From Pseudomonadota bacterium (lineage in GTDB: Bacteria; Bdellovibrionota_B; Oligoflexia; Silvanigrellales; Silvanigrellaceae), in contig JBDLRP010000029.1 in assembly GCA_039799905.1 (NCBI GenBank), forward strand, positions 83,535 to 115,534: a stretch of DNA of 32,000 nt. The letters are read 5' to 3'. The notes under the pieces are model-generated. The model had not been told where the DNA came from and made no database searches. It worked only from the letters and a program-made list of their open reading frames with translations. Of the stretch, positions 9,980 to 24,801 are shown one piece after another (within the stretch, counting starts at the first letter, position 1; each line of letters starts with the position of its first letter). The position numbers and the translations under genes are program-made.

Positions 9980-10046
9980 GTATGAAAAAACATATCCATT
10001 TAGGAGAGCTTGAGTGTGCCACAAGCTGCTGGGCAGGGCCAATACG

Positions 10047-11535: not shown

Positions 11536-12516
11536 TTAATCGACGTGTGCCTGAAAGACGAACCCGGTTTGTCCGACTTTTGCAAATTCGCAGCCAGACA
11601 AAGGCTCGGCAAGTCGAACGCGAAAATGACCAGATTCGCCTCTCCCACCATTGAGAATAAAAACCTTCATCGCCTGACCGGTCACAAGTGAACATTTTTG
11701 TTGTGCAGAGAGCTCTGCAGATTGAGCCGTCGAGGTTTTAAACCAGCTGTCATGCCGCAATTTGATTGAAACCGCGCTGCCTTCAGGCGGAGGCTCCGAC
11801 CAAACAACGCCTTCAGAGCCCCTCGGAGTCTTTCCAACTTCAGGTTGTGGCTCTTCATCACCACGCGGCTGAATTCTACGAATGCGATACCAAATTTCAG
11901 CAATGCCGCGTGCATCATCGGTAGTCAGCGAATTTGCTGCATTGCGCAGATTGGCCTGCATCACGGCTCCGCTCACATTGCTGTGGTGAAGGCCGAAAGC
12001 GTGCCCCAGTTCATGAAGAACGGTTTTTCGTCCGCCGCTCGAATCGCGTTTGGGATTCGTGACACCGGCCATGTTCAGGTACAAACTCCCAGCTCCAATC
12101 AGATAAGCACCTAGAGTGGGGCTTGTTGTCTGCGAAATCTCGCGCTGAAATCGACCTTCGTCATAGTGGAGTATGACTCGCAGCTCACCTGCCGAAACAT
12201 CGCCTCCACACGTTCCAAGAAGAAAGCGAACTTCTGGATTCACCTGAATGACACGCATCCATTCAAGGATTGCGAATTTGACGACTGATGCAAACTGACC
12301 GGCGTCTTTTTCGTAACGAACGGAGTCGACCGAACCTTCAGACTCCATACAAATCAGCAAGGGACGCCCCTGATGGACCGCCACAAGAAGATTTGCGGCG
12401 GGCTGCGCCCACCAATCACCCGTTACAAAGGCCGGCTGGGAATCTGTGGAAGAGGTCGGCAATTTGCATCCACAGAGCTGCAGACTAAAAAGACTGAGCA
12501 ACACATTCCGCAGCAT
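11536..12516 (-). CDS. matrixin-like (M10, metzincin) zinc metalloprotease lipoprotein with C-terminal SH3b-like module
   Basis: VLHELGHAFGLHHSNVSGAVM matches HExxHxxGxxH plus the Met-turn. ATG 12516 gives the signal/lipobox MLRNVLLSLFSLQLCG|C. Confidence 0.75.
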   Translation of the reverse strand: MLRNVLLSLFSLQLCGCKLPTSSTDSQPAFVTGDWWAQPAANLLVAVHQGRPLLICMESEGSVDSVRYEKDAGQFASVVKFAILEWMRVIQVNPEVRFLLGTCGGDVSAGELRVILHYDEGRFQREISQTTSPTLGAYLIGAGSLYLNMAGVTNPKRDSSGGRKTVLHELGHAFGLHHSNVSGAVMQANLRNAANSLTTDDARGIAEIWYRIRRIQPRGDEEPQPEVGKTPRGSEGVVWSEPPPEGSAVSIKLRHDSWFKTSTAQSAELSAQQKCSLVTGQAMKVFILNGGRGESGHFRVRLAEPLSGCEFAKVGQTGFVFQAHVD

Positions 12517-12540
12517 GAAAACCACCTCAACAGAACACAA

Positions 12541-13539
12541 CTACAAATCCACAACCCGGCTTTCTTGCGGCCTCAGCGGGGCGTACATCGGAGTATCGGT
12601 AGAACTGCCATCCGACTTAAATACCCGCAGCAGGTAGTTCACAGGTGGCAAGTAGCGGAGATCATAGCCACCATTTTTAACATCACCAATCGCTTCGGCC
12701 CGGTCGCATGAACTTGTGGTGTCAAACACATTCGCAACATTCACCGCTCCAGCAGGCAAATGACGCTGAAATTGCCCCACAGGCTCAAACTGCTTTACGT
12801 TCAACTTGTTGTGACGTCTTGATCCTCCCAAAATGTATGCGCAAATTCGTGTCACAGAAGGGTCGCCGACAGAGCCGTAAATACGCGCGGCAATTTTGCT
12901 TGGAACGACGTGAATCATCGGTTTCATCGCATAACGTCCGTCGGGTAGTTTAATCACAGAACGACGCAAATCGACGTGGATGATAATTTCGTTTTCGGAA
13001 TCCTCCTCAACGTCAAACTCCTCAATAATCGTGAATTCTTTTTGACCAAACGGACCGACGGGAAAATCTAGCCTGACGCGTTCGCCGGTCGACTTGCTCA
13101 CACCCTCAACCTCACTGTCCTGCGTCATAAAGAGTCTGAGACCTTCATAGGTACCTGCGGGAAGATTGGCTGCGAACGGCAAGACCTGGGTTTTTCCATC
13201 CGAGAGGGACAGCAGATCGACCTCTGTTTCTTTGTTCAAATCAAAATAGTAAAGCGACGAATCGGCGCAGGAACTGCGCGGATCTCTCAAACAGCGTCCT
13301 GTTCCCCCAGGGGCAAACGCAACAGCACGCACTGTCACATACAGGTTCGAAAAATCATCCACGGGTGCATCAGCCAGAGCCACCGTTACATTGCCCGGCT
13401 TGATAGGTTTTGTGGTTTGGGGATTGCCAGCCTGAACACGACAGCCGGATTCGCCCTGCATAAGAAACAACAGCAGCAAGAAAGTATATATTCTGCTGCG
13501 AAAGGCCGCGCCACTCTGAATTCCCAGCCGTTTTTTCAC
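12541..13539 (-). CDS. secreted DUF4382-like protein with CarboxypepD_reg-like C-terminus
   Basis: It has a signal peptide. GNVTVALADAPVDDFSNLYVTVRAVAF...DLLSLSDGKTQVL...LPAGTYEGLRLFM...IIIHVDLRRSVIKLPDGRYAMKPMIHVV matches my recollection of the DUF4382 template. GTGA overlap with the upstream gene. Confidence 0.6.
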   Translation of the reverse strand: MKKRLGIQSGAAFRSRIYTFLLLLFLMQGESGCRVQAGNPQTTKPIKPGNVTVALADAPVDDFSNLYVTVRAVAFAPGGTGRCLRDPRSSCADSSLYYFDLNKETEVDLLSLSDGKTQVLPFAANLPAGTYEGLRLFMTQDSEVEGVSKSTGERVRLDFPVGPFGQKEFTIIEEFDVEEDSENEIIIHVDLRRSVIKLPDGRYAMKPMIHVVPSKIAARIYGSVGDPSVTRICAYILGGSRRHNKLNVKQFEPVGQFQRHLPAGAVNVANVFDTTSSCDRAEAIGDVKNGGYDLRYLPPVNYLLRVFKSDGSSTDTPMYAPLRPQESRVVDL

Positions 13540-14414
13540 TTCTTACCCCCCGCCGCCTTCGTTAACGGAAAGATCTGCATGGAAATCTGGACCACCCGGC
13601 TGCCATCCTGAGTTTCAGCGGGAGGATGATCTTGATAAATCCGTTGTGAGAAGTCTTGAATCTTCTCTTTAAGTCCATCAAATTGTTCTTGAGAAAGCGT
13701 AAGCACCAGAGAGTTAATGTCCCTCTCTTCGGCCGGGCAGTCGACGACCGCAGCACGTGCCAAATCCAAAAGCGTCTGATGATAGCGAACCATCGCCACT
13801 CCGGCGACCTCGGGACCTGTCGCCACGTCATTCTGCAGCGCAACGTAACGCTTCTGACTACCATCCAGTTTCGCATAACCAATCCTGCACAGCAGCTCCA
13901 GTCCACTGTTGATTTCGTCGAGAGTAATCTTCGGACGAATCCGTTCCTGAAACCACTGCGGATCATCTGTGCTACCAGCAAAGCTCATCAACTCGAGCAA
14001 GACGGCATGTGACCAGTGACTAAAAAACTCTAACTGCCACTTATCGAGCTCGTTGACGACAAGACTTCCCTTCAACGCAACCAGTTTGCGGAAAACCGAT
14101 TCACGAATGACCGGATCGCGTTCGTAGCTGTGCTCCACCAGCAATTCGAAATACTGACGCTCACGTCCGACGAGCCCCAGGCCGGCAATCATTCTTTTGC
14201 AAGTCTTTATAGTCAGCGGACGGCGGCCACGAATGAGGGCATTCATCAGGTTGTTGCGGCCGAGGCCTGCATCGAAGGCAAAATCGAAGTATGTGTATTC
14301 GGGCTCGGCATTTTTAAGACCAACGAACAGCGCCTCCAAATACACCCGGTAATCGAGGTACTCCGATGGACGGACGACTTCGTTGCAAATCTTTTTGATT
14401 TTTGCCTTGTCCAC
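13536..14414 (-). CDS. TIGR02147-family protein (putative HTH DNA-binding)
   Basis: 292 aa. EYLDYRVYLEALFVGLKNAEPEYTYFDFAFDAGLGRNNLMNALIRGRRPLTIKTCKRMIAGLGL...ERQYFELLVEHS follows the pattern of the Fibrobacter/Bdellovibrio paralogous family TIGR02147. GTG start with AGGAGG upstream. Confidence 0.6.
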   Translation of the reverse strand: MDKAKIKKICNEVVRPSEYLDYRVYLEALFVGLKNAEPEYTYFDFAFDAGLGRNNLMNALIRGRRPLTIKTCKRMIAGLGLVGRERQYFELLVEHSYERDPVIRESVFRKLVALKGSLVVNELDKWQLEFFSHWSHAVLLELMSFAGSTDDPQWFQERIRPKITLDEINSGLELLCRIGYAKLDGSQKRYVALQNDVATGPEVAGVAMVRYHQTLLDLARAAVVDCPAEERDINSLVLTLSQEQFDGLKEKIQDFSQRIYQDHPPAETQDGSRVVQISMQIFPLTKAAGGKK

Positions 14415-14552: not shown

Positions 14553-16232
14553 CTACAGTGGCCGCGCCCCCATATATGCTCCGAGACCAGCGGAAATCAC
14601 CGAACGCTCCAATTCACTCATTCTCACCCTGACAAACTGCTCCTCAAGCATACGAGCAATTTTAACCTTGGATGCAATGTCAGATGGCTTTGCCGAGGCA
14701 TCGGCAATGGGACTCAGCAACGCTCTGAGTTCTGCCTGCAAATCGGGAGGAAGCGAACGTGCCATGGAGGGTTTGGTGTTCTTCATATGCGTTGCCGCAT
14801 TGCGTAAACCGTTCATCGCCAGCTTGAATTTCTCCCAAGCAGCGCCTCCCTTGGTGTTCAACTGCGTGATGATCTCTTTTTTTGTCAGTGCGTTTTTTGG
14901 CGCAATCTTCAATAGATTACGCCAGGCCTGCGGATTGAGAACATTGCCGACAATCGACTTGCTGGTGCTCAATGCGCGCGCGGTATGAAAAATACCCTTG
15001 CGTGCTACGTTGTAAACGTCTGCCGCAATCATCGTATAGTAGGCCGTCTGCATCGCAACTTTCAAAGGACTCATCGGCAAATCCTCGATCCAGCGACTCA
15101 GCGGAATGCTCACCGCCGTGAAGACACCGCCCGCCGCAACGGCAACTGCAAACGCACTTGAGGCCATGACTGTCGCCGCACTTCCGGCCGAGGTAATGCC
15201 CGCAGCAACAGCCGCCGAAGAGGATGCACCTGCCGTAAAATATCCGACTGTTCCTGCTGTTGCAGTCCACATGGAACCCATTGCTGCTCCAAGCGCAGGA
15301 AGCGACACGACACTGATGGCAATTGCAGCACCCACTCCGACCACAACCTTGCGCGCGCCGTCGACTTGCTGCTTCAACCAGACTTTTGAGAACTCCTCCA
15401 AGTCCAACGGACCCTTTTCCTCATCGGGAATTCCCAGCATTTGTTTTGCTATGCTCTGCTCATCGGAAGCTTCTTTACCTTCAAAAAACCGATCAGAAGG
15501 AAGAGGCGCCGGAAAGGCAACCTCATTAGCCCACGAATCCGGGCGATGGGTCACCATGACTGTGCGCGCGAGAGGCTTACGCCTGATGAAAATTGCAGAC
15601 AACTCCTGCCAGTTGCCTGTCACACGAATCGCCTGATAGAGCTTGCCGTCCGCTCCGCGGACAAAAACAAATTCAAACTGCCGGGTGTCGCCAAGGATAG
15701 TTGAACCCCAATTGGGGTCGGTTGTGAAACCTGAGCAGTCTTTTGGGTTGCTTGTACCCGTCCCATTTTGCCCCAGCAATGTATTCGGATCGCCCAAGGC
15801 AGGGGTAATCCTGCAACCAAAAAAACGCAGAGTGCTTGCGTCGTTCCCGCCTTCAGCAGCAATTTTCATCTCATTGAGCAGCGCGCCGACTTCCGAAGAC
15901 GGGAGAAACTCCTCGAACTGGCTTTTCTTTTGCCGCACCTGAACTTTGACCTTGCCGTTGCGCGCCCCCTCCAAATTTACCGCAAGCATATGCATCGCAG
16001 AACAGTCGGCCTTCAACTGATCTTCCGTATCAGGATCCAGCAGGCCAGCTTCATCTTCCGGTGAGCAGGCCTCACTGATTTTTTTCATCGTCTCGGGATC
16101 CAGGTTGTCGCGATCTTCAATACCATACGAACGGCTGTTCGACTTCTGCTTGATGCATCCCGACAGAGTGCCTGCAAGCACTGCAGACGTTGCAACACAA
16201 ATGAGAGCTCTTCTCCATATATGAAAGCTCAT
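14553..16232 (-). CDS. hypothetical polytopic lipoprotein, last gene of the mot-like block
   Basis: 559 aa with a canonical lipobox (AVLAGTLSG|C). Domain order: a roughly 290-aa soluble domain, a Gly/Ala/Ser-rich hydrophobic stretch (VVVGVGAAIAISVVSLPALGAAMG...AFAVAVAAGGVFTAVSIPL) and a roughly 180-aa helical C-terminal domain. GAGGAGG SD. Confidence 0.65.
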   Translation of the reverse strand: MSFHIWRRALICVATSAVLAGTLSGCIKQKSNSRSYGIEDRDNLDPETMKKISEACSPEDEAGLLDPDTEDQLKADCSAMHMLAVNLEGARNGKVKVQVRQKKSQFEEFLPSSEVGALLNEMKIAAEGGNDASTLRFFGCRITPALGDPNTLLGQNGTGTSNPKDCSGFTTDPNWGSTILGDTRQFEFVFVRGADGKLYQAIRVTGNWQELSAIFIRRKPLARTVMVTHRPDSWANEVAFPAPLPSDRFFEGKEASDEQSIAKQMLGIPDEEKGPLDLEEFSKVWLKQQVDGARKVVVGVGAAIAISVVSLPALGAAMGSMWTATAGTVGYFTAGASSSAAVAAGITSAGSAATVMASSAFAVAVAAGGVFTAVSIPLSRWIEDLPMSPLKVAMQTAYYTMIAADVYNVARKGIFHTARALSTSKSIVGNVLNPQAWRNLLKIAPKNALTKKEIITQLNTKGGAAWEKFKLAMNGLRNAATHMKNTKPSMARSLPPDLQAELRALLSPIADASAKPSDIASKVKIARMLEEQFVRVRMSELERSVISAGLGAYMGARPL

Positions 16233-16278: not shown

Positions 16279-18825
16279 TCATGCGACAACGGGGCTTGAA
16301 ATTTTAAAGCGCCTACTCATGTCTTTGATCGCGGTATCAGCCTCACTTGGCGAAACACGCGGGTACATCACTTCATTTATCTCGCTCAGATTGATTAATC
16401 CGCTCGCAGCAAAAGACCTGATTTTCGACAACACCTGCATCTCTGCCAGACGGAATGACTCACTGTCCAACCCGCGGATGTTTGAAGCGCTCTCGTTCCA
16501 GTCGTCGGCAATCTCATCGGGAGCTTTGCGCAGAACAAGTTGTCTTATTTTGTCTCGTGTGCCGGCAAGGAATGTCACCATCACCTGAGGTTCGAGTGCC
16601 AGGAATATTTCCAAAAGAAGCCCGTCGCTCAAATAGGCAAGGGTTTCCACACTGACAAAGCGGCTTCTCACCTGACGAGCAAGTTCTGGATTGGTGCGAT
16701 CCAGATTCTCAAGCATTTCAAGCTGGGAATCGCGTTCGCTCCGTTCCACAAGATCGATGATTACATCAGCGCCGCCAAGCATTTCTCCTCCGGCTGCTCC
16801 CATTTTTTCAATCTTTCTCTTGAGTGCCATAGCTACATTGAACAGGTATTCGCGCGGCAGCGTTTCCTTGATGCAGAGCTCGCGCAAGAGTGCGGACTTT
16901 AGACTGCCTTCAAACAACTCAAACACAGCCCTGCGCTTGTCTGTCGGTAATTGAGTCAGCACAACAGCCTGCGACCGCGCACTCTCATCGCAAATCAAAT
17001 CATAAATCTGTCTTCCTGAGAACGATTTCAAGAAGTCAAATGTATCCTGAGCACGTTGAGTCATCTGCCTGATTTTTCCGGCAGTCAGCTTGAGTTTGAG
17101 ACTTCTCAAAACCGAAAGCTGTTCACTGTCGCCGACAATTGGAGCGTTCACATGAATGTATTCAGCGAGCAGGGCGACTTCTTTTTTTACGTCATCATCG
17201 CCCAGCAAATCAAAGACCATTATCTCGCCAAGCACGGATACACATTTAGCCGAGAATTCAATTCCATCTTCCCTAAGAATGCGCGAAAAGACATCTCGTG
17301 CAATCTTCGGCTGAGAAATAAACATCTGAGTCAGCTCATCGCGCAGTGATTGGATATTCATGCGCTGGGCAACTTCATCGTTGATTCCACCGGCAGGAAT
17401 CACAACGGCACGCGGGCGAATCGGAAGTGCTGCAGGAACAGTTGTTACCGGAGGGCTTGCCCCAAATGCGGACTGACCAATCTCTGTGGCAGCAGGTATG
17501 GCAACATCATCTCTGAAGTCCGCCTGCGGAGCGTGAACACCACGCCCCTCGGAAATGAGATGCTGTACCTGTTTGCTGCTCAAAACATAACGGAGCCCAA
17601 GCGCTCCAACCAACAGAAGAACGGCAAAGACGCCTGCAAACAAAAGGACCCTGTCTTTTGTCCAAAAGTCCTGAAGTCCGTTCTCGCTGAGCGTTTTTTG
17701 GGTATCCGACAACTCCTTGGTCTGTGAGGACTCCACAGACTGCGAAGAATTGCTCTTCTCCGAAAGTGACTCTCTGTTCCGCTCGCGCTCCTTCTCACTT
17801 TGCCTTTCCCGCTCACTCTCGCGGCTGATACTGTCGCGCTCGCGGATTACTTCTTTTGTATTTGCGAATTCGCGGAATATTCTCAGTGAACGGCCCAATC
17901 TTTCCAGACCCCAAGGATCGTTGCGCAATTCGTCGGAATCCTTTTGCAACTCGGAGGCAGCCTTTGGCATTGAGGTCAGTTTGACGTTCAAGATTCCCTG
18001 ACCATAGTTGTCGAGGTGATCACGCAAGAGATTTTCAATCTGCAGCCGGCGGTTGTCTTCCATCTCGGATGCAAGAGTCAGACTCGCAGTAACACCCGAA
18101 ACCACGAGCGCATGCTTGCTTTCACGAATGACAACAGCACGTCGCATCAGTGATGACTGGGCGTCCTCAAGAGGAATCCGCACCGTTTTAACCTCAAGCG
18201 TCTGCAATCTGCATTCAAGCGGACAAAAATCAGATAAAATTCTTTCAATGGAACTCTTCACTAAGCTGACTGCCTCCGATTTAGCCTCTGCCTCTGCCCG
18301 GATGACGTGAGGAGGGTCTGGAAGTGCGGCATTTGTGAATTCAATTTCTAACGGAACACCATAGCGTCGTGACGCTCGGAGCAGGACATCGCGTATCCGC
18401 TCGATATTGCTCTTTCCCAGTCTGTTATCAATCAAAACCTCGGCAACCGCACTGCTCACCAAAAAAGTTCTTGGTACGACTGTTGCGCTTTCGAAACCAA
18501 GTGAAGCCGAATTTGTGTCAAAGAGCTCGCGGCTTTCAACATCCACACCCAAAATCGTACAACCATCCGGACAATACTTCGTCACGTCCGACTGGAGTTT
18601 TGTTCGAATGCGCTGAATTGTTTCTTCGTCGAATCTGAGCTTTTCAGGGTCGGCGGGGGCCATGGATTGGAACGCCTGAATTTGCTGCGATGCAAAAGCG
18701 GTTTGATAGAGCGAAAGTTGCGTCATGAGGGCAACAAGCGAGGCACAAAAAAAGCTAGCCACGGAGAGTGTAGAACTCCTCCCCATCACTTTCGCCTTTT
18801 TATATGCAACTCGACAAATCATCAC
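16279..18825 (-). CDS. bitopic membrane protein: periplasmic repeat domain + TM + complete cytoplasmic FliG-like module (FliF-topology/FliG fusion)
   Basis: 848 aa. TM1/signal is aa 18-45 and TM2 is aa 393-415. Residues ~500-815 align by eye with FliG N/M/C: DESARSQAVVLTQLPTDKRRAVFELF; GGADVIIDLVERSERDSQLEMLENLDRTNPELARQVRSRFVSVETL; LSDGLLLEIFLALEPQVMVTFLAGTRDKIRQLVL...FRLAEMQVLSKIRSFAASGLINL. The start (GTG 18825 / ATG 18822) overlaps the motB stop as GTGA. Confidence 0.8.
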   Translation of the reverse strand: MMICRVAYKKAKVMGRSSTLSVASFFCASLVALMTQLSLYQTAFASQQIQAFQSMAPADPEKLRFDEETIQRIRTKLQSDVTKYCPDGCTILGVDVESRELFDTNSASLGFESATVVPRTFLVSSAVAEVLIDNRLGKSNIERIRDVLLRASRRYGVPLEIEFTNAALPDPPHVIRAEAEAKSEAVSLVKSSIERILSDFCPLECRLQTLEVKTVRIPLEDAQSSLMRRAVVIRESKHALVVSGVTASLTLASEMEDNRRLQIENLLRDHLDNYGQGILNVKLTSMPKAASELQKDSDELRNDPWGLERLGRSLRIFREFANTKEVIRERDSISRESERERQSEKERERNRESLSEKSNSSQSVESSQTKELSDTQKTLSENGLQDFWTKDRVLLFAGVFAVLLLVGALGLRYVLSSKQVQHLISEGRGVHAPQADFRDDVAIPAATEIGQSAFGASPPVTTVPAALPIRPRAVVIPAGGINDEVAQRMNIQSLRDELTQMFISQPKIARDVFSRILREDGIEFSAKCVSVLGEIMVFDLLGDDDVKKEVALLAEYIHVNAPIVGDSEQLSVLRSLKLKLTAGKIRQMTQRAQDTFDFLKSFSGRQIYDLICDESARSQAVVLTQLPTDKRRAVFELFEGSLKSALLRELCIKETLPREYLFNVAMALKRKIEKMGAAGGEMLGGADVIIDLVERSERDSQLEMLENLDRTNPELARQVRSRFVSVETLAYLSDGLLLEIFLALEPQVMVTFLAGTRDKIRQLVLRKAPDEIADDWNESASNIRGLDSESFRLAEMQVLSKIRSFAASGLINLSEINEVMYPRVSPSEADTAIKDMSRRFKISSPVVA

Positions 18826-19478
18826 TGATAAACCCTTATAACAACCCTTCTGTTTGCCGCGCGTGCCTGTTCAAGTGCATCGCCCGCTTTTCCACTGATG
18901 GAAATTTTGGGCCTCGAAGAACCAAATCCTGCAACGCTCATCCTTTCCTGCGGGACCTTGAGTTCACGCATTTTGTTCAGCAGTGCGACTCCGCGCGCGC
19001 TGCTGAGCGCCCAATTCACCTCATCATTCCCGACATCGTCAGTATGTCCCTCAAAACTGAGGAAATATTTGCGATCTGTCTTTTGGAGAATCTGCAAAAT
19101 TGGCATTGCTTCCTTTGCCGCAAAGTCACTTAACTCATCGCTTCCCTGACGAAACAGAACACCACCTAAAAACTCAACCATCAGACCTGACATTCCCAGC
19201 TCGGTGACGACCGAGCTCTGCAAGCCCCTGTTGGCAATCTCGAAATCAATCTGTTTTTTCAATTCATCAAGACTGTCGGTCCGCTGGCGGGTCATCACCT
19301 GTGATACGACATCAAATTTCTGCGCGCTGACCTGCGACATCGACAGCATCAACACGAAGAGTGCGAGCATATTTGTTGTCAGGTCGGCATATGAGGTCAG
19401 CCACAATGAGTCTTTGTTTTTCTTTTTGCTGCGCTTTGAAATTCCGGCGACAGAATTGAAGAATGATTCCTGAGTCAT
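18822..19478 (-). CDS. motB: MotB-type stator protein (OmpA-like peptidoglycan-binding C-terminus)
   Basis: 218 aa. The TM carries the conserved Asp context WLTSYADLTTNMLALFVLM. The C-terminus is FEGHTDDVGNDEVNWALSSARGVALLNKM...AGFGSSRP. A GGGAGGG SD lies inside the motA 3' end. Confidence 0.85.
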   Translation of the reverse strand: MTQESFFNSVAGISKRSKKKNKDSLWLTSYADLTTNMLALFVLMLSMSQVSAQKFDVVSQVMTRQRTDSLDELKKQIDFEIANRGLQSSVVTELGMSGLMVEFLGGVLFRQGSDELSDFAAKEAMPILQILQKTDRKYFLSFEGHTDDVGNDEVNWALSSARGVALLNKMRELKVPQERMSVAGFGSSRPKISISGKAGDALEQARAANRRVVIRVYQ

Positions 19479-19484
19479 TTTTCG

Positions 19485-20315
19485 CTACCCTCCCTGAGAC
19501 GCGCGGGTGCGCGGCGGGAGATCGCGATTGCCTTCACTCTGGGAGAGACCGGCCGCAGTGCGACCCTGTGTTTGTTCCTGCGAGTAGGTGCTCAAAACAT
19601 CTCTCAGGTGTGCTTGGGATTTCTTTTCCTTGAGCAGGAGGACTCCCTCAAGAATCATCAAATCAAGCTGCAAAGTCTTTTCCGCATAAATCGCGATTTT
19701 TTCAGAGATGGGTGTGTACACAACGGTACCGAGAATTATTCCATAGAGGGTTGTCAGCAGGGCTATCGCCATAGATGGGCCGAGTTTGGCTGGCTCCGAC
19801 ATGTGTGAGAGCATTTGGACAAGTCCAACGATCGTTCCGAGAAGTCCCATGCCGGGACACAGTTTTCCCAAACTTTCAAAAAGACTCACCGCATGGGAAA
19901 ACTGAGTTTGCTTGGTATTTATTTTTGCAGTCAGGTTGTGCCTGATTTCGTCGGCTGTAAAGCTCGATAGAATGAGCGTCACGCCATCCCTGAAGAGCTG
20001 ATTGCTGATTTGCGGTTTGTATTTTGCGAGAATTCCTATTCCCTCTGTCCGCACTGCGTAACTGAGCGTCGACAGCTGATTTGAAATTTGGTTCATTTCT
20101 TTTTTTTGATTCAGGAACGCAAGACTCAACAGTGTGCGAAGCCCTGAAAAGAAATCGATGAAACTGTGCGACATAAGCATTACGGCAATCGGCGCGACTC
20201 CGAGCAGGACGGCCGAGGCCGGCTCCCAGAAGCCTTCGAAATTTTCGCCGCCATGAAAAATCAGATACCAAAGTGACCACGCAAAGGCTGTAAGGCCGAC
20301 AAGAATGCTGATCAT
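19485..20315 (-). CDS. motA: MotA-type stator protein (4 TM, large TM2-TM3 cytoplasmic loop)
   Basis: 276 aa. TM3 LCPGMGLLGTIVGLVQML and TM4 ALLTTLYGIILGTVVYTPIS retain the two conserved Pro residues. The loop is AVRTEGIGILAKY.... ATGA overlap with the upstream gene. Confidence 0.85.
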   Translation of the reverse strand: MISILVGLTAFAWSLWYLIFHGGENFEGFWEPASAVLLGVAPIAVMLMSHSFIDFFSGLRTLLSLAFLNQKKEMNQISNQLSTLSYAVRTEGIGILAKYKPQISNQLFRDGVTLILSSFTADEIRHNLTAKINTKQTQFSHAVSLFESLGKLCPGMGLLGTIVGLVQMLSHMSEPAKLGPSMAIALLTTLYGIILGTVVYTPISEKIAIYAEKTLQLDLMILEGVLLLKEKKSQAHLRDVLSTYSQEQTQGRTAAGLSQSEGNRDLPPRTRASQGG

Positions 20316-21088
20316 GGCACCCTCCCGTCGACTGCCTTTGTGCTCTGCGCAGGTTGATCGATCCTCTTTTGCCGGAGACCTTCGCGGCTTGAAATAACTC
20401 TTCGCAGTTGCTCGATCTGCGCGAGCAGCCGAGGATTCGGCTCGAGGTCAAACGCCTTTTCATACGCGGAAAGCGACAAATCTGACTGACTCAGTCTGAG
20501 ATGAAGAGTCCCCTTCATGGTCCAAAGCAATGCTGATTTGGAGAAATGCAGCAGCAGTTCGTTTGTCTCAACAAGAGCATCCTCGTAACGTTTTGATGAA
20601 AACAGCTGACGTATTTTTTTTGTTGATTCAGTGAAGCTCGGGCTGAGCGGTCTTCCGTCCTCCTCGCTGACTCCCAAAACCCGATCAAAATCTCCAAGCC
20701 TTTTCTCGAATTCACCGGCACCGCTCACGCCTGCGATTTCGGCGTCCGTTCTTTGCAAGCGAGCTCTCTCGCGGGATTGTGCAATGGGATCGCCTGTCAC
20801 ATCTCCCGGCTCAAGTCCCATCACAGATGCGGGTAGTTTGACCTCAGTAAGATCCGAACCTCGTTCTCCGGTGAGCACCTGCTCGACAGTTTCCCGTTGA
20901 GCACGTTCGCTTGCTTCCCGCGAGGCAGGAGGGGGTGCAATTCGAAATTCCGTTGCTGGATTTTTGTTGTCCTGCAACACGCGCTGCTGTTGCGCTGCCG
21001 GTGTTTCCGCAGGCGTCGACGTACACGAGAAATGTGCGACTCCCACAAACAGGAGGCACAGTTTAAAACTGGAGGCCGAAGGCAACAT
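20312..21088 (-). CDS. secreted TPR-repeat protein
   Basis: ATG 21088 (GGAGGA 10 nt upstream) gives the signal-like N-terminus MLPSASSFKLCLLFVGVAHFSC. The C-terminal TPR-like helices are YEDALVETNELLLHFSKSALLWTMKGTLHLRLSQSDLSLSAYEKAFDLEPNP. The track start at 21175 would overlap the upstream gene by 113 nt. Confidence 0.6.
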   Translation of the reverse strand: MLPSASSFKLCLLFVGVAHFSCTSTPAETPAAQQQRVLQDNKNPATEFRIAPPPASREASERAQRETVEQVLTGERGSDLTEVKLPASVMGLEPGDVTGDPIAQSRERARLQRTDAEIAGVSGAGEFEKRLGDFDRVLGVSEEDGRPLSPSFTESTKKIRQLFSSKRYEDALVETNELLLHFSKSALLWTMKGTLHLRLSQSDLSLSAYEKAFDLEPNPRLLAQIEQLRRVISSREGLRQKRIDQPAQSTKAVDGRVP

Positions 21089-22271
21089 CAGCAGCCAATC
21101 CTCCAGGCGTTGTGTATTTATATCGATTGCGAACACTGATGGTCGTCGGAAGGCTGTATCCAACACCGGCGTCAATTAGAAATCGCTGACCCAAACGCAT
21201 TGTTGCGCCGCCTCTCAACGAAAAGCAGGCATATCCTTTGGAGACAATCGTTCCAGCACCCAATTCCAGACCGGTGACGGTGCCATCAACGCTGGAGGAA
21301 TCCTTCGAAAAGAAGTGTCCATAAATCGCGTAAAGTCCCAAAGCTCGCGTGAAGGGGAGAATGATTTCCGTGTTGCTGCCTTCTTTGAATTCAGCACTGG
21401 AAGCAGGGTCGCCGACAATCTCCGGATAGTCGGAAATCAGCACAGATGGCGCTAAAATCCCGCTCAGTCTTGTGCCAACTTCATCCCGCCCAGCATTGAA
21501 TTTTTCAGAAAACCGCAGATTGATTCCAAGCATGTTCGCGCTGTCTTTGACATTCGGAACAAGATGCCAACCGATTGTCGTGGCAAAGAGATATTTCGAT
21601 TTTTTGGCTGTTTCGACTTCAATCTGCTGCTTGGTTTCGGAGTCGCGCTGCTCCATCTTCTGCCTGTAGATATTTTCAGTGTTGTAAAGCTTGCTCCAGA
21701 GCAACTCTTTGGACTTGGAATCGAACACATGGAATCCCAAAATCATGCTTGTTTCTTGATAAATCAGCGTCATATCAACCCAAGCTTCAACCCCGAGCTG
21801 ACTTGCGATTGCGTCCAGTTCCTGCGGATTGTTTATGGGCGTGGTCATTACCAGCCGTCCGTTTTCAACGACCGTTCGACGCACCCGACAATTGGTGCAC
21901 TGCAAAACCTTGGTGCCGCTGTGCTTGCGGAATGCATCCGAGATCTGTGTTTCAAGATAGCTCTCATATGTGCGCGGTATGCCCTCGCCCAAGGCAACAC
22001 GACGGATCGCCACGTTTCGCAGAGAATTTAGTGCTTTGGCCCGTAGATCAAATGAAAACTCGTTCACAAGATCTTGCAGAACTTCATTGAAACTCTTCAC
22101 CTGCTCGCCTTGACCTTGCGTCATCAAAGCGGCTTGTGACTTTGCGGGTGGCGATTCGACGGCAAATGCATACGTCGTCGGTGCGAGCACGACAGTGAGC
22201 GCAAACGCGTGAGCGAGCGCCCGAAAAACGAGCTGTGCTCTCCTTATTTTCTGCCGAAAAATGTCAGGCAT
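21063..22271 (-). CDS. putative outer-membrane protein: N-terminal alpha/beta domain + C-terminal beta-barrel
   Basis: 402 aa with a signal peptide (RRAQLVFRALAHAFALTVVLAPTTYAFA|VE). The C-terminal third has alternating-hydrophobicity strands and ends in ...GLAADVAFGLQF, a terminal aromatic typical of OMPs. Confidence 0.6.
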   Translation of the reverse strand: MPDIFRQKIRRAQLVFRALAHAFALTVVLAPTTYAFAVESPPAKSQAALMTQGQGEQVKSFNEVLQDLVNEFSFDLRAKALNSLRNVAIRRVALGEGIPRTYESYLETQISDAFRKHSGTKVLQCTNCRVRRTVVENGRLVMTTPINNPQELDAIASQLGVEAWVDMTLIYQETSMILGFHVFDSKSKELLWSKLYNTENIYRQKMEQRDSETKQQIEVETAKKSKYLFATTIGWHLVPNVKDSANMLGINLRFSEKFNAGRDEVGTRLSGILAPSVLISDYPEIVGDPASSAEFKEGSNTEIILPFTRALGLYAIYGHFFSKDSSSVDGTVTGLELGAGTIVSKGYACFSLRGGATMRLGQRFLIDAGVGYSLPTTISVRNRYKYTTPGGLAADVAFGLQF

Positions 22272-22375: not shown

Positions 22376-23017
22376 TCAGAGCGAGTAGGTCAGCTTCGCA
22401 AGAGACTCTTTGCCGGTTGCGACAACGAGTTCCCAAGATTTGCGCGCTTCGTCGCCCTGAAAATCTTCGTCGTAAGTTTCGAGCAAGTCCTGAATTCCCT
22501 CTGCATCTTCAAGAAGGCTCAGGGCGTTGACAGCCGAGCGGAAATAACGCGCAGCTTCGTTCGGGTGACGCTTCACTTTGAGGCTGAGACGTCCCATTTC
22601 TTCATACCACTGCGCCTTCTCTTCGGGAGTCGCAACTTCGCCCGTCTCGCCCAGCATATATATGTAGGTGTTCAACGCACGAGTGTTGTCTTTGGAAGCC
22701 ATCAGCTCGGAAATCTTGGGCAGGAGAGTTTGAATCGTCTTGCGGGCCTTAGCTTGTTCTTTGCGTTTGTCCTCGAGGCTCTCGGATGAGTGCTTTTCGA
22801 GAATTCTCTCACAATGGGCGCGCAGTAGACGCAGGTCTTCGGGAAGAACCTGATCGCGCTCTGTTTCGAGTGTGGGGTTGATTTGGCGAAACAGAGACAA
22901 GAGTTCCGCCGGAGAAACGTGAAGGTAGCCGGCGAGAATCTGAATTGCCCACGGGCGATCGTCGGGCCAAATCCGCTCTGCACGTTCCATCTGCCGAATC
23001 AACTCATGCATATCCAT
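22376..23017 (-). CDS. hypothetical helical cytoplasmic protein
   Basis: 213-aa ORF with a GAGGAGA SD 4 nt upstream of ATG 23017 and its own terminator. No family recognised. Confidence 0.6.
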   Translation of the reverse strand: MDMHELIRQMERAERIWPDDRPWAIQILAGYLHVSPAELLSLFRQINPTLETERDQVLPEDLRLLRAHCERILEKHSSESLEDKRKEQAKARKTIQTLLPKISELMASKDNTRALNTYIYMLGETGEVATPEEKAQWYEEMGRLSLKVKRHPNEAARYFRSAVNALSLLEDAEGIQDLLETYDEDFQGDEARKSWELVVATGKESLAKLTYSL

Positions 23018-23137: not shown

Positions 23138-23884
23138 TCAATTTTGAGACCCAGTAAAATTCTTTCGAAGTCGCAGGAAAAACCTGATTAAATGGTAGCA
23201 GAGCAGCAGAAGGACCACCAGCCAAACAGCGGAAAGCGGGCCCTGATCCAAAAAACTGACTGGTTGGCTTGACAAATAATTTCTTTCCCTGTTGACTAGA
23301 CGGCCCGCTGCGAGAGCCTCACCCTCTTGAGCCGCTTTGCGCACATCCCCGAGCAGGTTGTTCCAGAAAACTTCAAACCCGGCCGAAGCGAATTCTACCG
23401 GACCATTCTGATACGCAAGCAGCTCACCGTCTCGGTCGAGCAGAAAAAAAGCCGGGTGCGCGACCACAGACAAGCGCTCACTTAGAACTCCCTGAGGATC
23501 CCAAATAATACCCTTCAGGCTCCTCAGGCCCGTCGCCCGATACTCCAAGCCCAACTCAGGAAGCGTGGGCCAATCGCTCACAACTATGCGCGCACAGACC
23601 GTTGGCGCCAACGCACCCGCGACTGGAGGATGCGCTTCCTGCAAACGCTCAAGCGCCCGGGCACCTGCACGACAATTTTCACACTCAGGCAAGGTAAAAT
23701 AGAGCGCAGTGAGGTCGGCAGGGCGCCCTCCCTCCTTGTCACAAAACAACGACTCAGGCGCAGGCGCAGCGTCGGCATCTCGCTCACCGACAACAGGGAA
23801 TTCAAAATTTGGAACGAACACCTTGCTATCGAGGGTGTGCAGTCCGGAGGCCTTGGCCATCTGAGAGAGAGTTGTTAATCCCAT
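23138..23884 (-). CDS. thioredoxin-fold (TlpA/ResA-like) protein with C-terminal TM anchor
   Basis: It has the CxxC after strand 1 (ALYFTLPECENCRAGARALERL), a cis-Pro region (VVAHPAFFLLDRDGELLAY) and a C-terminal TM (LSAVWLVVLLLLCYHLIRFFL). I chose ATG 23884 (GGAG 5 nt upstream). The longer track ORF to 24274 conflicts with a better plus-strand ORF. Confidence 0.5.
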   Translation of the reverse strand: MGLTTLSQMAKASGLHTLDSKVFVPNFEFPVVGERDADAAPAPESLFCDKEGGRPADLTALYFTLPECENCRAGARALERLQEAHPPVAGALAPTVCARIVVSDWPTLPELGLEYRATGLRSLKGIIWDPQGVLSERLSVVAHPAFFLLDRDGELLAYQNGPVEFASAGFEVFWNNLLGDVRKAAQEGEALAAGRLVNRERNYLSSQPVSFLDQGPLSAVWLVVLLLLCYHLIRFFLRLRKNFTGSQN

Positions 23885-24070
23885 ACCGTCTCCAAAATGA
23901 GACACATACCCTTCGAGGTGATGCTTTCCTGAGACACTAGCTATCCCCCCTTCTCTGAGTAATTGCAACGGATGTTCCAAATCATAGGCTCTGTCGCCGA
24001 ATTTTAAAATTGGCACGGTATTTGCTTTGAGACTTCCGAAATCGAACGCACTGTCATAGGAGAGAGAACG

Positions 24071-24360: not shown

Positions 24361-24387
24361 CGACTCATCGAGTGATGAGTGGCTGAC

Positions 24388-24801
24388 TTAGCCTGCCTTG
24401 TGCAGGGGTGTGACCTTAGCCACAACCTTGCGAGCTTTGCGAGCTGCAGGCTTCTTGGCTTTCTTTGCCTTCTTCTTAGCAGCTGGCTTCTTAGCGGCAG
24501 CCTTCTTAGCTGTAGCCTTCTTAGCCTTCTTCTTGGCAGCTGGCTTCTTGGTAACAGCCTTCTTGGCGGTTGCCTTCTTAGCCTTGCGCTTAGCTGGCTT
24601 CTTAGCAGCAGCCTTCTTAGCGGTAGCTTTCTTGGCAGTAGCCTTCTTAGCCTTCTTCTTCGCAGCTGGCTTCTTAGCCTTTGCAGCAACTTTCTTCTTC
24701 GCCTTGCCGCCTACTTTTTTCTTAGCTGCGCGGACTGTCTTCTTCTTCTTTGCACGCTTCGGTTTTGCGTGCGATACTTCAGCTTTAGTTTCAACTGTCA
24801 T
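24388..24801 (-). CDS. histone-H1-like Lys/Ala-repeat basic protein
   Basis: 137 aa consisting almost entirely of KKPAAKKKAKKATAKKA-type repeats. The minus strand is chosen because the terminator lies 28 nt downstream and AAGGGA lies upstream of the ATG. The other three overlapping frames give Leu/Ser/Phe or Arg/Leu nonsense repeats. Confidence 0.7.
   Translation of the reverse strand: MTVETKAEVSHAKPKRAKKKKTVRAAKKKVGGKAKKKVAAKAKKPAAKKKAKKATAKKATAKKAAAKKPAKRKAKKATAKKAVTKKPAAKKKAKKATAKKAAAKKPAAKKKAKKAKKPAARKARKVVAKVTPLHKAG
24440..24740. repeat. imperfect tandem coding repeats (GCCTTCTTAGC-type units) inside the H1-like gene
   Basis: Directly visible reiteration of ggcttcttagc / gccttcttagc / gccttcttggc. 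At the protein level there are about five KKPA-initiated units of 10-24 aa. Confidence 0.6.

What the first reader, a model, noticed from the sequence alone, without database searches (positions are those of the whole stretch)
16279..18825. Natural single-polypeptide FliF-topology/FliG fusion (848 aa)
The layout was read from the translation. Residues 18-45 are a hydrophobic signal or TM1. Residues 46-392 are periplasmic. Residues 393-415 are TM2 (VLLFAGVFAVLLLVGALGLRYVL). Residues 416-500 are a Pro/Ala-rich linker. Residues ~500-815 are FliG-like and 816-848 form a tail. Several blocks line up with canonical FliG as I remember it (E. coli / Thermotoga). FLKSFSGRQIYDLICDESARSQAVVLTQLPTDKRRAVFELFEGSLKSALLREL resembles FLRNEHPQ..A.IL..L....AA.IL.LFDE.LR.DV..RI. 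GGADVIIDLVERSERDSQLEMLENLDRTNPELARQVRSRFVSVETL resembles GGVK.AAEILN.LDR..E..ILE.L.EEDPELAEEIKK.MFVFEDI. LSDGLLLEIFLALEPQVMVTFLAGTRDKIRQLVLRKAPDEIADDW...FRLAEMQVLSKIRSFAASGLINL resembles LDDRSIQ.VLREVD...LA.ALKGAS.ELKEKIF.NMSKRAA..L...V..AQQ.II.IIR.LEE.GEI. Two TMs flanking a periplasmic domain, followed by FliG, is the FliF+FliG arrangement with the non-covalent FliF-tail/FliG_N contact replaced by a peptide bond. The segment aligned with the torque helix is net acidic (PDEIADDWNES). The partner MotA loop presents R/K (AVRTEGIGILAKYK) where E. coli MotA has the R90/E98 pair. This hints at a re-tuned electrostatic interface, but that rests on a rough by-eye alignment.
Basis: partly seen in the sequence, partly recalled or inferred. 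Interest (0 to 1): 0.8.

Follow-up and report, generated by a model that had tools for sequence, protein, structure and literature searches.

The report
Natural FliF–FliG rotor with own stator
A real, conserved gene fuses the membrane-ring and torque-ring proteins of the bacterial flagellar motor into one polypeptide and sits in an operon with its own ion-driven stator but no other flagellar genes, which suggests a stripped-down flagellar-type rotary motor used for something other than a flagellum.

Summary
Window 16279..18825 encodes an 848-aa protein. Its parts, in order, are a signal peptide, two FliF/SctJ-like ring-building (RBM) domains each carrying an invariant C-x3-C, one transmembrane helix, a disordered linker, and a FliF-tail/FliG N-M-C-like cytoplasmic half. 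It is not an assembly artefact. 29 full-length orthologues exist, and 87 cluster representatives match at E<1e-30, all from Oligoflexia (Silvanigrellales and Oligoflexales, Bdellovibrionota). The start codon overlaps the stop of a PomAB-type motB. The FliG torque helix has lost every canonical basic residue (K264→A, R281→E, R297→D). The adjacent MotA loop has lost its canonical acidic residues and gained an invariant Lys. This is a reciprocal charge change. FliF–FliG fusion, MotA, MotB and a TPR protein occur together in five divergent lineages; a signal-peptide protein X joins them in four. None of these loci carries other flagellar genes. My best reading is a stand-alone FliF–FliG ring rotor driven by a dedicated stator, with unknown output. 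A natural FliF–FliG(M) fusion is already known in Chlamydiaceae, so the fusion itself is not unprecedented. The full torque domain, the dedicated stator and the conserved cassette appear undescribed.

The parts
16279..18825 (-). Whole gene: 848-aa FliF-like/FliG fusion ('FliFG')
   Evidence: ORF and translation. 29 full-length orthologues.
18691..18825 (-). Residues 1-45: N-terminal signal peptide, predicted cleavage AFA|S (less likely an uncleaved signal anchor)
   Evidence: Most family members have short h-regions followed by AxA-type sites. This is inference from the -3/-1 rule; no SignalP was available.
18328..18648 (-). Residues 60-166: RBM-like domain 1 (alpha-beta-beta-alpha-beta), with invariant C85-x3-C89 at nt 18559-18573
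   Evidence: AF2 secondary structure and pLDDT 83-91. Foldseek hits to FliF and SctJ-family rings. Invariant Cys.
17974..18312 (-). Residues 172-284: RBM-like domain 2, with invariant C201-x3-C205 at nt 18211-18225. It aligns with the single RBM3-like domain of the A5 fusion family
   Evidence: hhalign.
17833..17919 (-). Residues 303-331: the most conserved periplasmic segment, an amphipathic helix DPWGLERLGRSLRIFREFANTKEVIRERD
   Evidence: Runs of invariant columns. It supplied the search patterns for related loci.
17671..17832 (-). Residues 332-385: Glu/Arg/Ser-rich low-complexity periplasmic spacer of variable length
   Evidence: Alignment. pLDDT <50.
17581..17649 (-). Residues 393-415: transmembrane helix (equivalent of FliF TM2)
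17380..17580 (-). Residues 416-482: conserved juxtamembrane motif (KQVQHLISEGRG), then a variable disordered linker
17089..17379 (-). Residues 483-579: helical region colinear with the FliF C-terminal tail plus FliG_N of family A5. No direct Pfam FliG_N hit
   Evidence: hhalign A1 vs A5. A5 vs 8z4d_1, 8umd_B and FliF. Inferred by transitivity.
16777..17088 (-). Residues 580-683: FliG middle domain. The EHPQ motif is replaced by E-S-x-R
16387..16776 (-). Residues 684-813: Gly-Gly hinge (G684, G685) and FliG C-terminal (torque) domain
16465..16527 (-). Residues 767-787: torque-helix equivalent KAPDEIADDWNESASNIRGLD. The canonical R281 position is E771, the R297 position is D787, and there is no basic residue on the helix face
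   Evidence: Ungapped HMMER and hhalign alignments. Conservation.
16279..16386 (-). Residues 814-848 plus stop: C-terminal tail ending in conserved ...ISSPVVA
18822..19478 (-). MotB-like stator subunit: plug, TM with Asp32, OmpA-like peptidoglycan-binding domain. Its stop overlaps the fusion's start codon
19485..20315 (-). MotA/PomA-like stator subunit. Its cytoplasmic loop R89...K98-Y99-K100 lies at nt 20016-20051
   Evidence: Full-length alignments to solved MotA and PomA. Pfam and NCBIfam. Orthologue conservation.
20312..21088 (-). TPR-containing periplasmic protein. The likely start is Met30 of the 287-aa ORF 20312..21175. It is conserved in the cassette
21063..22271 (-). Protein X (402 aa): signal peptide, conserved N-domain, beta-rich C-half ending ...FGLQF. 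A putative outer-membrane partner
   Evidence: Synteny. Homologues inside other cassettes (g402 vs L024 E 2.7e-19; alignment). The outer-membrane assignment is inferred from sequence only.
14553..16232 (-). 559-aa protein with lipobox-like LSGC and a long Gly/Ala/Ser-rich hydrophobic stretch. It lies 47 nt downstream behind a GAGGAGG Shine-Dalgarno and is conserved only in the closer Silvanigrellales loci

Best explanation
The gene encodes a one-piece rotor. After signal-peptide cleavage, two FliF-type ring-building domains assemble a periplasmic ring, probably disulfide-stabilised through the twin C-x3-C motifs. Each subunit crosses the inner membrane once. Each carries its own FliF-tail/FliG N-M-C unit on the cytoplasmic face, so a FliG torque ring forms 1:1 with the membrane ring without the usual non-covalent FliF-FliG contact and without FliM/FliN.

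The co-translated MotA/MotB pair is a PomAB-type, peptidoglycan-anchored, ion-driven 5:2 stator. It engages the FliG_C torque helix through a re-wired, charge-complementary interface (basic MotA loop, acidic FliG helix). This interface should keep the pair separate from any canonical flagellar motor in the same cell. Ion flow then turns the FliFG ring.

The conserved TPR protein and the secreted protein X (g402) are periplasmic or outer-membrane partners, acting either as a stator scaffold or as the receiver of the output.

Shown: domain identities, conservation of the fusion, operon coupling, the charge changes, and recurrence of the cassette. Inferred: ring formation, rotation, disulfides, insulation from the flagellum, and the roles of TPR and X. 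The output (surface motility or another envelope process) is unknown.
For: 1. Real and conserved. There are 29 full-length orthologues. 87 representatives at 50% clustering match at E<1e-30, many 720-990 aa and matched end to end. The source taxa are Silvanigrellales and Oligoflexales.

2. FliG M+C identity.

3. RBM folds, with FliF MS-ring chains as the best structural matches. The colinear homology chain is window family <-> A5 <-> engineered FliF-FliG, FliF and full-length FliG.

4. The stator looks functional. It aligns full length to solved MotA/PomA (E 1e-33 and 2e-31). MotB has the plug, Asp32 and an OmpA domain, and MotA has the two conserved prolines.

5. Translational coupling motA-motB-fliFG: a 6-nt gap, then a 4-nt overlap.

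6. Reciprocal charge change:
- In FliG, K264->A754, R281->E771 and R297->D787, with D775 nearly invariant.
- In MotA, PomA R88 is kept as R89, while PomA E96/E97/E99 become Y99/K100/Q102. K100 is invariant in all 12 sequences.
- In cassette L022 the MotA keeps an acidic 'LEE' and its family's FliG consensus keeps the R281-equivalent Arg (NLPxR).
- In L013/L014, MotA K98->Q coincides with FliG D775->N. This is a single event.

7. FliFG, MotA, MotB and TPR, with X in four of the five lineages, recur in five divergent lineages in different gene orders and with no other flagellar gene nearby.

8. Engineered FliF-FliG fusions assemble rings and support rotation (cited in PMC4768692; 8z4d).
Against: - No experiment or oligomer model shows a ring or rotation.
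- The periplasmic domains have no significant sequence match to FliF on their own. Pfam gives none, the PDB HMM search gives none, and periplasm-only hhalign gives prob 3%.
- The Foldseek TM-scores are low because the domain orientations differ.
- There is no axle, export gate or FliM/FliN, so what the rotor would turn is unknown.
- In Oligoflexales the fusion gene is not next to motAB, so a dedicated stator is documented only for some lineages.
- Cultured Silvanigrellaceae have full flagellar gene sets (PMC7386786, PMC12321486). A role inside or beside the flagellum therefore cannot be excluded.
- I could not check whether this genome has canonical fliF/fliG.
- The MotA loop alignment has an indel, so the residue-to-residue pairing is approximate.
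Confidence: 0.6

Rival explanations
1. It is an accessory or alternative part of the ordinary flagellum of these bacteria, for example a second rotor type, or a membrane platform that recruits a second stator set to the flagellar pole.
For: Cultured Silvanigrellaceae are motile and carry complete flagellar gene sets. The components are all flagellar homologues. Dual stator and dual FliG systems exist in other bacteria (background knowledge).
Against: No flagellar gene lies within 32 kb here, nor in the loci fetched around the cassettes L022-L025. The EHPQR FliM site is lost. There is no beta-collar or RBM set to house a rod or export gate. The rotor-stator charge pattern is changed on both partners, which argues for a private pairing.
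Confidence: 0.15
2. It is a non-rotating membrane scaffold or regulator. The FliG-like domain would dock or sequester MotAB units, as a stator reservoir, brake or ion-flux sensor, rather than being turned by them.
For: There is no obvious load or axle. A membrane PilZ-domain gene is kept nearby in synteny. The C-terminus ends in a conserved ...VA that resembles protease-recognised tails, which is speculation.
Against: The whole torque domain, the hinge Gly-Gly and a co-varying charged interface are conserved across very divergent lineages, together with an apparently functional ion channel. A pure docking role would not need ring-building domains.
Confidence: 0.12
3. It is an SctJ-like inner-membrane ring of a secretion or other trans-envelope apparatus, as proposed for the Chlamydia FliF-FliG fusion, and the FliG part is only a cytoplasmic adaptor.
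For: The topology (signal peptide, two RBMs, C-terminal TM) matches SctJ. PrgK, EscJ and MxiJ appear among the fold matches. pilMNOPQ lies 2.5 kb away in two Oligoflexales loci, and pilD lies 6 kb away here.
Against: No T3SS gene is nearby. There is no lipobox. The conserved partners are MotA/MotB, not secretion components. FliF chains outrank SctJ-family chains in the fold search.
Confidence: 0.05
4. The fusion is an assembly, frameshift or annotation artefact, or a decaying pseudogene.
For: None found.
Against: The same uninterrupted architecture occurs in independent assemblies from NCBI, JGI, ENA and Logan at 43-100% identity, with strong column conservation on both sides of the junction.
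Confidence: 0.01

Closest known systems
Chlamydiaceae FliF (CT719-type) natural FliF-FliG fusion (Bergeron 2016, PeerJ, PMC4768692)
   Same: Both are natural single polypeptides with a signal sequence or TM, two RBM-like periplasmic domains, a TM and a FliG-like cytoplasmic domain. Both occur in a genomic context without a full flagellum.
   Different: The chlamydial protein is about 330 aa and only its FliG middle domain is reported. It has no torque domain and no MotAB partner. Here the protein is 848 aa with FliG M+C and an N-like region, a dedicated PomAB-type stator in the same operon, twin C-x3-C motifs and a conserved TPR/X cassette. I did not compare the two sequences directly.
Canonical flagellar MS-ring/C-ring pair FliF + FliG, and engineered FliF-FliG fusions (Salmonella; Vibrio, PDB 8z4d)
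   Same: The order of parts is the same: RBM, TM2, FliF tail, FliG N-M-C. The sister family A5 aligns in one stretch to 8z4d. FliG M/C homology is significant.
   Different: - No RBM3 beta-collar.
- Only two RBMs, and no Pfam YscJ_FliF hit.
- Probably only one TM in the mature protein.
- EHPQR (FliM site) lost.
- Torque-helix charges inverted.
- No fliM, fliN, flhA or rod genes nearby.
PomAB/MotPS-type flagellar stators
   Same: The neighbouring MotA and MotB align full length to solved PomA and MotA. They have the plug, the Asp32 equivalent, the conserved prolines and an OmpA-like domain.
   Different: Scores are far below the NCBIfam equivalog cut-offs (143 against 341 bits). The acidic residues of the rotor-facing loop are replaced by Tyr, Lys and Gln.
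SctJ (PrgK/EscJ/MxiJ), the inner-membrane ring of injectisomes
   Same: The topology matches: N-terminal export signal, two RBMs, a C-terminal TM. Fold matches appear.
   Different: No lipobox, no T3SS context, and a large FliG-type cytoplasmic domain.
Non-flagellar 5:2 motors with envelope partners (Tol-Pal with the TPR protein CpoB; Agl-Glt gliding; GldLM; Zorya)
   Same: An ion-driven MotAB-family stator is encoded with TPR and putative outer-membrane partners and without a flagellum. The analogy comes from background knowledge.
   Different: Those systems use TolA, TonB, GltG/J, GldM or ZorA tails as the driven element. None uses a FliG ring. The MotA here belongs to the flagellar (PomA-like) type, not the ExbB/TolQ type. 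PADLOC finds no ZorA.

Membership tests
FliG (flagellar motor switch protein) | FliG middle domain (Pfam PF14841) above the gathering score | tested here: met
   32.4 bits against 25, residues 605-677. hhalign to canonical FliGs gives prob 99.6%.
FliG (flagellar motor switch protein) | FliG C-terminal torque domain (PF01706) above the gathering score | tested here: met
   31.6 bits against 23.3, residues 706-813, full profile length 1-108.
FliG (flagellar motor switch protein) | FliG N-terminal domain that binds the FliF tail | tested here: inconclusive
   No Pfam FliG_N hit, and hhalign to canonical FliG starts at the M domain. However, residues 483-579 align colinearly with the FliF-tail/FliG_N part of family A5.
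FliG (flagellar motor switch protein) | Equivalog-level score (TIGR00207 cut-off 226.7 bits) | tested here: not met
   42.9 bits.
FliG (flagellar motor switch protein) | EHPQR motif for FliM binding | tested here: not met
   EHPQ aligns to E614-S-x-R617, and the Arg160 position aligns to Glu.
FliG (flagellar motor switch protein) | Torque-helix charge set K264, R281, D288, D289, R297 (E. coli numbering) | tested here: not met
   The aligned residues are A754, E771, E778 (variable), S779 and D787.
FliG (flagellar motor switch protein) | Encoded among flagellar genes (fliF, fliH, fliM, fliN ...) | tested here: not met
   No other flagellar gene in the 32-kb window.
FliF (MS-ring protein) | Pfam YscJ_FliF / YscJ_FliF_C sequence match | tested here: not met
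   No hit in the window protein, even at E<=1. The sister-family member P0142 does pass YscJ_FliF_C (24.8 bits against 23.8).
FliF (MS-ring protein) | Periplasmic ring-building-motif (alpha-beta-beta-alpha-beta) domains | tested here: met
   Two such domains in the AF2 models (pLDDT 80-90). The best PDB fold hits are FliF chains at E 1e-5 to 1e-3.
FliF (MS-ring protein) | RBM3 with beta-collar insertion; three RBMs | tested here: not met
   Only two RBMs, with short inter-strand loops of about 20 aa.
FliF (MS-ring protein) | Two transmembrane helices flanking the periplasmic region | tested here: inconclusive
   The C-terminal TM is present. The N-terminal segment looks like a cleavable signal peptide in most family members. 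No dedicated predictor was available.
FliF (MS-ring protein) | Oligomerises into a ring of about 34 subunits | not testable with these tools
   Only monomer prediction is offered.
Flagellar-type stator MotA/MotB (neighbour genes) | MotA_ExbB channel domain with a four-TM PomA-like layout. MotB with plug, channel Asp and OmpA-like domain | tested here: met
Flagellar-type stator MotA/MotB (neighbour genes) | Rotor-facing charged pair (E. coli R90/E98; PomA R88/E96) | tested here: not met
   The Arg is kept (R89). The acidic positions are Y99, K100 and Q102.
SctJ (injectisome inner ring) | Lipoprotein signal and T3SS gene context | tested here: not met
   No lipobox at the N-terminus. No T3SS genes nearby.
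Zorya anti-phage system | ZorA plus ZorB with ZorC/D or ZorE | tested here: not met
   PADLOC gives only generic ZorB/MotB similarity. No ZorA or other Zor protein is found.

The most novel reading that the evidence does not exclude
The cassette (FliFG ring, private MotAB, TPR protein, secreted protein X) is a free-standing, axle-less, flagellar-type rotary motor. It would power a non-flagellar envelope function such as surface movement or outer-membrane or periplasmic work. That would make it the first FliG-based rotor outside a flagellum. It could be either a reduced descendant of the flagellar motor core or a surviving relative of it, existing without the type III export apparatus.
Probability: 0.4. 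Interest if true: 0.9.

Novelty: new variant of a known kind. Interest (0 to 1): 0.75.

Why it matters
- Scope of the rotor-stator pair. If the reading is right, the torque-generating core of the flagellar motor can exist and be selected for on its own, without rod, hook, filament, export gate or switch complex.
- Evolution. That bears on how the flagellar motor evolved, in particular whether the rotor-stator module is separable from the secretion core.
- A minimal model system. One rotor polypeptide plus MotA and MotB would be a natural subject for structural and single-molecule work on torque generation.
- Testable contacts. The natural charge-inverted rotor-stator interface is an evolutionary 'charge-swap experiment' that makes the electrostatic contact model directly testable.
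- Biology of Oligoflexia. It would add an unrecognised machine to a poorly studied group of freshwater bacteria, some of them pathogens of Daphnia and opportunists in human wounds.

Tried and rejected
- Plus-strand reading. Rejected, because it is full of stops.
- Assembly artefact. Rejected on the orthologue evidence.
- Direct sequence membership of the periplasmic part in FliF or SctJ. Pfam gives none, a profile against PDB sequences gives none at E<=10, and periplasm-only hhalign against A6 is not significant (prob 3%). The FliF link therefore rests on fold and on colinear full-length profile alignment.
- Internal duplication of the two RBMs. BLASTP finds no similarity.
- Accessory proteins g402, g559, TPR, g378 and g213. 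Pfam gives only sub-threshold matches below each family's gathering score, NCBIfam gives nothing, and PADLOC gives only a marginal JetD hit for g213 (E 0.0065). A profile of the X family against PDB gives only chance-level hits.
- Zorya defence system. Rejected.
- g213 as a motor component. Rejected, because in more distant genomes it sits beside an FtsK-like gene without motAB.
- Promoter and terminator scan. Counts are no higher than in shuffled sequence, so it does not define the operon.
- Literature searches. They found no description of this family or cassette in the held library. This does not prove that none exists.
- A first metagenome scan with alignment A5 failed for lack of a conserved stretch.


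Full report
**1. The observation**

The 848-codon ORF lies at 16279..18825 on the minus strand. The plus strand of the same interval is full of stops. The first in-frame start is a GTG that overlaps the stop codon of the upstream gene (…CAGTGATGATT…), and an ATG follows one codon later. The protein ends …SSPVVA-TGA.

Pfam finds FliG_M (residues 605-677, 32.4 bits, cut-off 25) and FliG_C (706-813, 31.6 bits, cut-off 23.3, covering the whole profile). It finds nothing in the N-terminal 600 residues.

The two genes immediately upstream on the same strand are a MotB and a MotA. The MotB (18822..19478) has MotB_plug and OmpA domains. The MotA (19485..20315) has a MotA_ExbB domain. No other flagellar gene is found anywhere in the 32-kb window.

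**2. It is a real, conserved gene**

A search of 5.8 billion proteins returned 29 full-length relatives at 43-100% identity. They come from NCBI, JGI, ENA and Logan assemblies, and all have the same uninterrupted architecture. Their alignment shows long runs of invariant columns on both sides of the membrane.

Fourteen species-level genomes carry it. All are MAGs labelled Silvanigrellales, Silvanigrellaceae, Silvanigrella or Oligoflexia.

An exhaustive profile search of 1.84 billion cluster representatives gave 87 hits at E<1e-30. Many are 720-990 aa and match end to end. Named members of this wider set are Oligoflexales MAGs. An assembly-made fusion is therefore excluded.

**3. Anatomy**

*N-terminus.* In most family members it has a short hydrophobic core followed by an AxA-type site. 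Here the site is AFA|S after residue 45. I read this as a cleavable signal peptide rather than FliF's TM1. This is inference, because no dedicated predictor was available.

*Periplasmic region.* AlphaFold2 models of the whole protein and of residues 55-332 give two alpha-beta-beta-alpha-beta domains (60-166 and 172-284) at pLDDT 80-90. In Foldseek against the PDB, the best matches to this region are FliF MS-ring chains:
- 6scn_A, E 1.1e-5
- 8z5v_A, E 6.7e-4
- 6sd3_Q, E 1.3e-3

The injectisome ring proteins PrgK, EscJ and MxiJ follow.

Each domain carries a C-x3-C at the helix-to-strand turn (C85/C89 and C201/C205). All four cysteines are invariant, even in the 50-sequence alignment of the wider family.

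After the second domain come three elements:
- the most conserved periplasmic segment, DPWGLERLG…FANTKEVIRERD;
- a variable Glu/Arg/Ser-rich spacer;
- the transmembrane helix at 393-415.

*Cytoplasmic region.* A conserved juxtamembrane motif is followed by a disordered, variable linker (427-481, pLDDT <50). The rest is helical.

*FliG part.* Residues 580-812 align to canonical FliG residues 94-327 (hhalign prob 99.6%, E 8.6e-24). The family profile hits Aquifex full-length FliG at E 1e-15.

**4. Is the N-terminal half FliF-derived?**

On sequence alone the window family does not reach FliF:
- There is no Pfam YscJ_FliF hit.
- A profile of the periplasmic region finds nothing among PDB sequences.
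- The two RBMs are not detectably similar to each other.

The link comes through a second fusion family found in the representative search (alignment A5; 600-730 aa; one periplasmic domain, a TM and FliG). Its evidence is as follows:
- Its profile aligns in a single stretch (positions 141-618) to residues 429-939 of the engineered Vibrio FliF-FliG fusion 8z4d (E 9.5e-55).
- It aligns to Vibrio FliF 412-579 (E 2.9e-4) and Salmonella FliF 408-559 (E 0.015).
- It aligns to Salmonella FliG residues 6-321, which includes the N domain.
- One member passes Pfam YscJ_FliF_C.

The window family aligns colinearly to A5 from the second RBM through the TM, the tail and FliG N/M/C (window residues 189-819, prob 99.8%, E 3.5e-30). 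The Oligoflexales alignment does the same at E 3e-45.

Most of that score comes from the FliG part. The periplasm-only comparison is not significant. The FliF ancestry of the window's RBMs therefore rests on three things: fold, colinearity, and the clear FliF identity of the sister family. I take it as probable rather than proven.

By the same transitive mapping, residues ~483-518 correspond to the FliF C-terminal tail and ~519-579 to FliG_N.

**5. How it differs from the flagellar proteins**

- There are two RBMs, not three.
- There is no beta-collar insertion.
- There is probably one TM.
- The FliM-binding EHPQR motif is replaced (E-S-x-R, and the Arg160 position is Glu).
- The torque-helix charges are changed, as follows.

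In ungapped HMMER and hhalign alignments:

| Canonical FliG position (E. coli) | Window residue |
|---|---|
| K264 | A754 |
| R281 | E771 |
| D288 | E778 (variable) |
| D289 | S779 |
| R297 | D787 (invariant) |

D775 and W776 are conserved. The helix is therefore acidic throughout.

**6. The stator**

MotA aligns over its whole length to solved flagellar stators (9lu9 MotA E 1.4e-33, Vibrio PomA E 2e-31). Its best NCBIfam models are PomA and MotP, far below equivalog cut-offs. The two conserved prolines are present. MotB has the plug, Asp32 in the TM and an OmpA-like domain.

In the rotor-facing loop, PomA R88 is kept as R89. PomA E96, E97 and E99 align to Y99, K100 and Q102. K100 is invariant, and position 98 is Lys or Arg in 10 of 12 sequences. 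A two-residue indel makes the exact register uncertain. Whatever the register, no acidic residue remains in that segment.

Rotor and stator have thus changed in a complementary way.

Two further observations fit a direct pairing:
- In a distant cassette (L022) the MotA keeps an acidic 'LEE'. The consensus of its fusion family keeps the Arg equivalent to R281 (NLPxR).
- In the L013/L014 lineage, MotA K98→Q coincides with FliG D775→N. This is a single evolutionary event and therefore weak evidence.

**7. A recurring cassette**

In Silvanigrellales the gene order is X(g402)–TPR–MotA–MotB–FliFG, followed by g559 in the closer relatives. This order is conserved while identities fall to 31-61%.

The same gene set appears around other fusion families:

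| Locus | Gene order |
|---|---|
| L022, L025 | FliFG–X–TPR–MotA–MotB (with a TPR tail); a PorP/SprF-like gene follows in L025 |
| L024 (GCA_016182335.1) | X–TPR-like–MotA–MotB–FliFG |
| L023 (2.17-Mb contig) | TPR–FliFG–MotA–MotB, then a MoxR/DUF58/VWA operon |

BLASTP links the accessory proteins across lineages. The 402-aa protein X matches its L024 counterpart at E 2.7e-19. L024 X matches L022 X at E 2.7e-8. The TPR proteins link at 1e-5 to 1e-11.

None of these loci holds any other flagellar gene.

In Oligoflexales the fusion gene stands apart from motAB. In three loci a DsbA-like gene lies directly upstream, and in two of these pilMNOPQ lies 2.5 kb away.

**8. Interpretation**

The simplest account is a one-piece MS-ring/FliG-ring rotor with a private stator:
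- The RBMs build the ring.
- The peptide bond replaces the FliF-tail/FliG_N contact and fixes a 1:1 ratio.
- The peptidoglycan-anchored MotAB turns the ring through a charge-complementary interface distinct from the canonical one. That difference would prevent cross-talk with a normal flagellar motor in the same cell.
- The periplasmic cysteines are probably disulfide-bonded. A thioredoxin-like membrane protein lies near the operon here, and DsbA-like genes lie upstream elsewhere.

The TPR protein may scaffold the stator, as TPR or Sel1 proteins do in Campylobacter and Vibrio motors (background knowledge). X has a signal peptide, a conserved N-domain and a beta-rich C-half ending in an aromatic residue. 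It may be an outer-membrane partner.

What the rotor drives is unknown. There is no rod, no export gate and no switch complex.

**9. Rivals**

- *A flagellar accessory role.* This stays possible. Cultured Silvanigrellaceae swim and carry full flagellar gene sets (PMC7386786, PMC12321486). I could not inspect the rest of this genome.
- *A non-rotating docking or regulatory role.* This is harder to square with conservation of the full torque domain and the co-varying interface.
- *A secretion-ring role like that proposed for Chlamydia.* There is no secretion-gene context.
- *Zorya.* Excluded.

**10. Comparison with the known, and novelty**

Natural FliF-FliG fusion has a precedent. Bergeron (2016, PMC4768692) described a ~330-aa chlamydial FliF with two RBMs and a FliG middle domain, of unknown function. 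Engineered fusions work in Salmonella and Vibrio.

Searches of the held literature found no description of the following features:
- a fusion that keeps the torque domain;
- its own PomAB-type stator with an inverted charge interface;
- a conserved TPR/X cassette;
- a wide distribution in Oligoflexia and related MAGs.

I rate it a new variant of a known kind. There is a substantial chance (about 0.4) that it represents a free-standing FliG-based rotary machine.

Noticed in passing
window 22376..23017 (-): A 213-aa soluble helical protein (g213) is 98-99% identical in amino acids to its orthologues in loci whose neighbouring genes are only 54-77% identical. Third-codon positions are only 48-57% identical, so purifying selection on the protein is extreme. 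Homologues (57-99% identity; some carry the precomputed family PF26585) are widespread. In more distant genomes the gene sits beside an FtsK-like gene, not motAB, so it is probably not part of the motor.
   Followed up: partly
window 18559-18573 and 18211-18225 (-); g378 at 23138..23911 (-); L015 8837-9841, L016 8887-9864, L017 6848-7846: The twin C-x3-C motifs of the two RBMs are invariant across the whole fusion family. A DsbA/thioredoxin_4 gene lies directly upstream of the fusion gene in three Oligoflexales loci. In the window, a membrane protein with a CENC motif (weak thioredoxin-like) lies upstream of the cassette. Together these suggest dedicated disulfide formation in the periplasmic ring.
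   Followed up: partly
window 16279..16300 (-); family members P0036, P0040, P0055, P0062, P0077: Family members whose C-termini were inspected (the 25 sequences of alignment A1 plus five members of the wider family) end in a small-hydrophobic-plus-Ala C-terminus (…SSPVVA, …MVA, …FAA, …VVA, …IVA, …ASA). This is reminiscent of C-terminal tails recognised by proteases. It was not tested.
   Followed up: no
L022 565-6356; L025 93-7070; L023 8191-12503; L024 4734-9638: Other natural FliF-FliG fusion families exist, with one RBM3-like domain or one C-x3-C RBM, at 545-730 aa. Each is encoded with MotA, MotB and a TPR protein. The next gene is PorP/SprF-like in L025, and a MoxR-DUF58-VWA operon follows in L023. 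P0156 (699 aa) appears to carry a FliN/SpoA-like segment ahead of its FliG part, judged by eye only.
   Followed up: partly
window 24388..24801 (-), terminator 24341-24361: A 137-aa Lys/Ala-rich (AKKA-repeat) histone-H1-like protein is followed by the strongest terminator-like hairpin in the region. The 218-aa Leu/Ser-rich ORF on the plus strand (24379..25035) is its antisense shadow and probably not a gene.
   Followed up: partly
window 25020..25673 (+): A membrane-anchored PilZ-domain protein (E 3e-8) is kept in synteny next to the cassette region in seven related loci. A possible c-di-GMP link to the motor was not tested.
   Followed up: no
L013 9512-12418; L014 4447-7476 (P0029, P0030): In the most divergent Silvanigrellales members, the fusion protein carries an extra ~150-residue Asn/Thr/Ala/Gly-rich low-complexity segment between the signal peptide and the first RBM.
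   Followed up: no
window 9101..10141 (-); L015 14750-20481; L017 12678-18385: Type IV pilus genes lie near the fusion gene: pilD is 6 kb away in the window, and pilM-N-O-P-Q is 2.5 kb downstream in two Oligoflexales loci. This may be coincidence.
   Followed up: no
window 11536..14414 (-): Downstream of the cassette lie a DUF4423 protein (E 2e-29), a DUF4382 protein and an M10-type metallopeptidase. They are conserved in the same order in the related loci, and their function is unknown.
   Followed up: no
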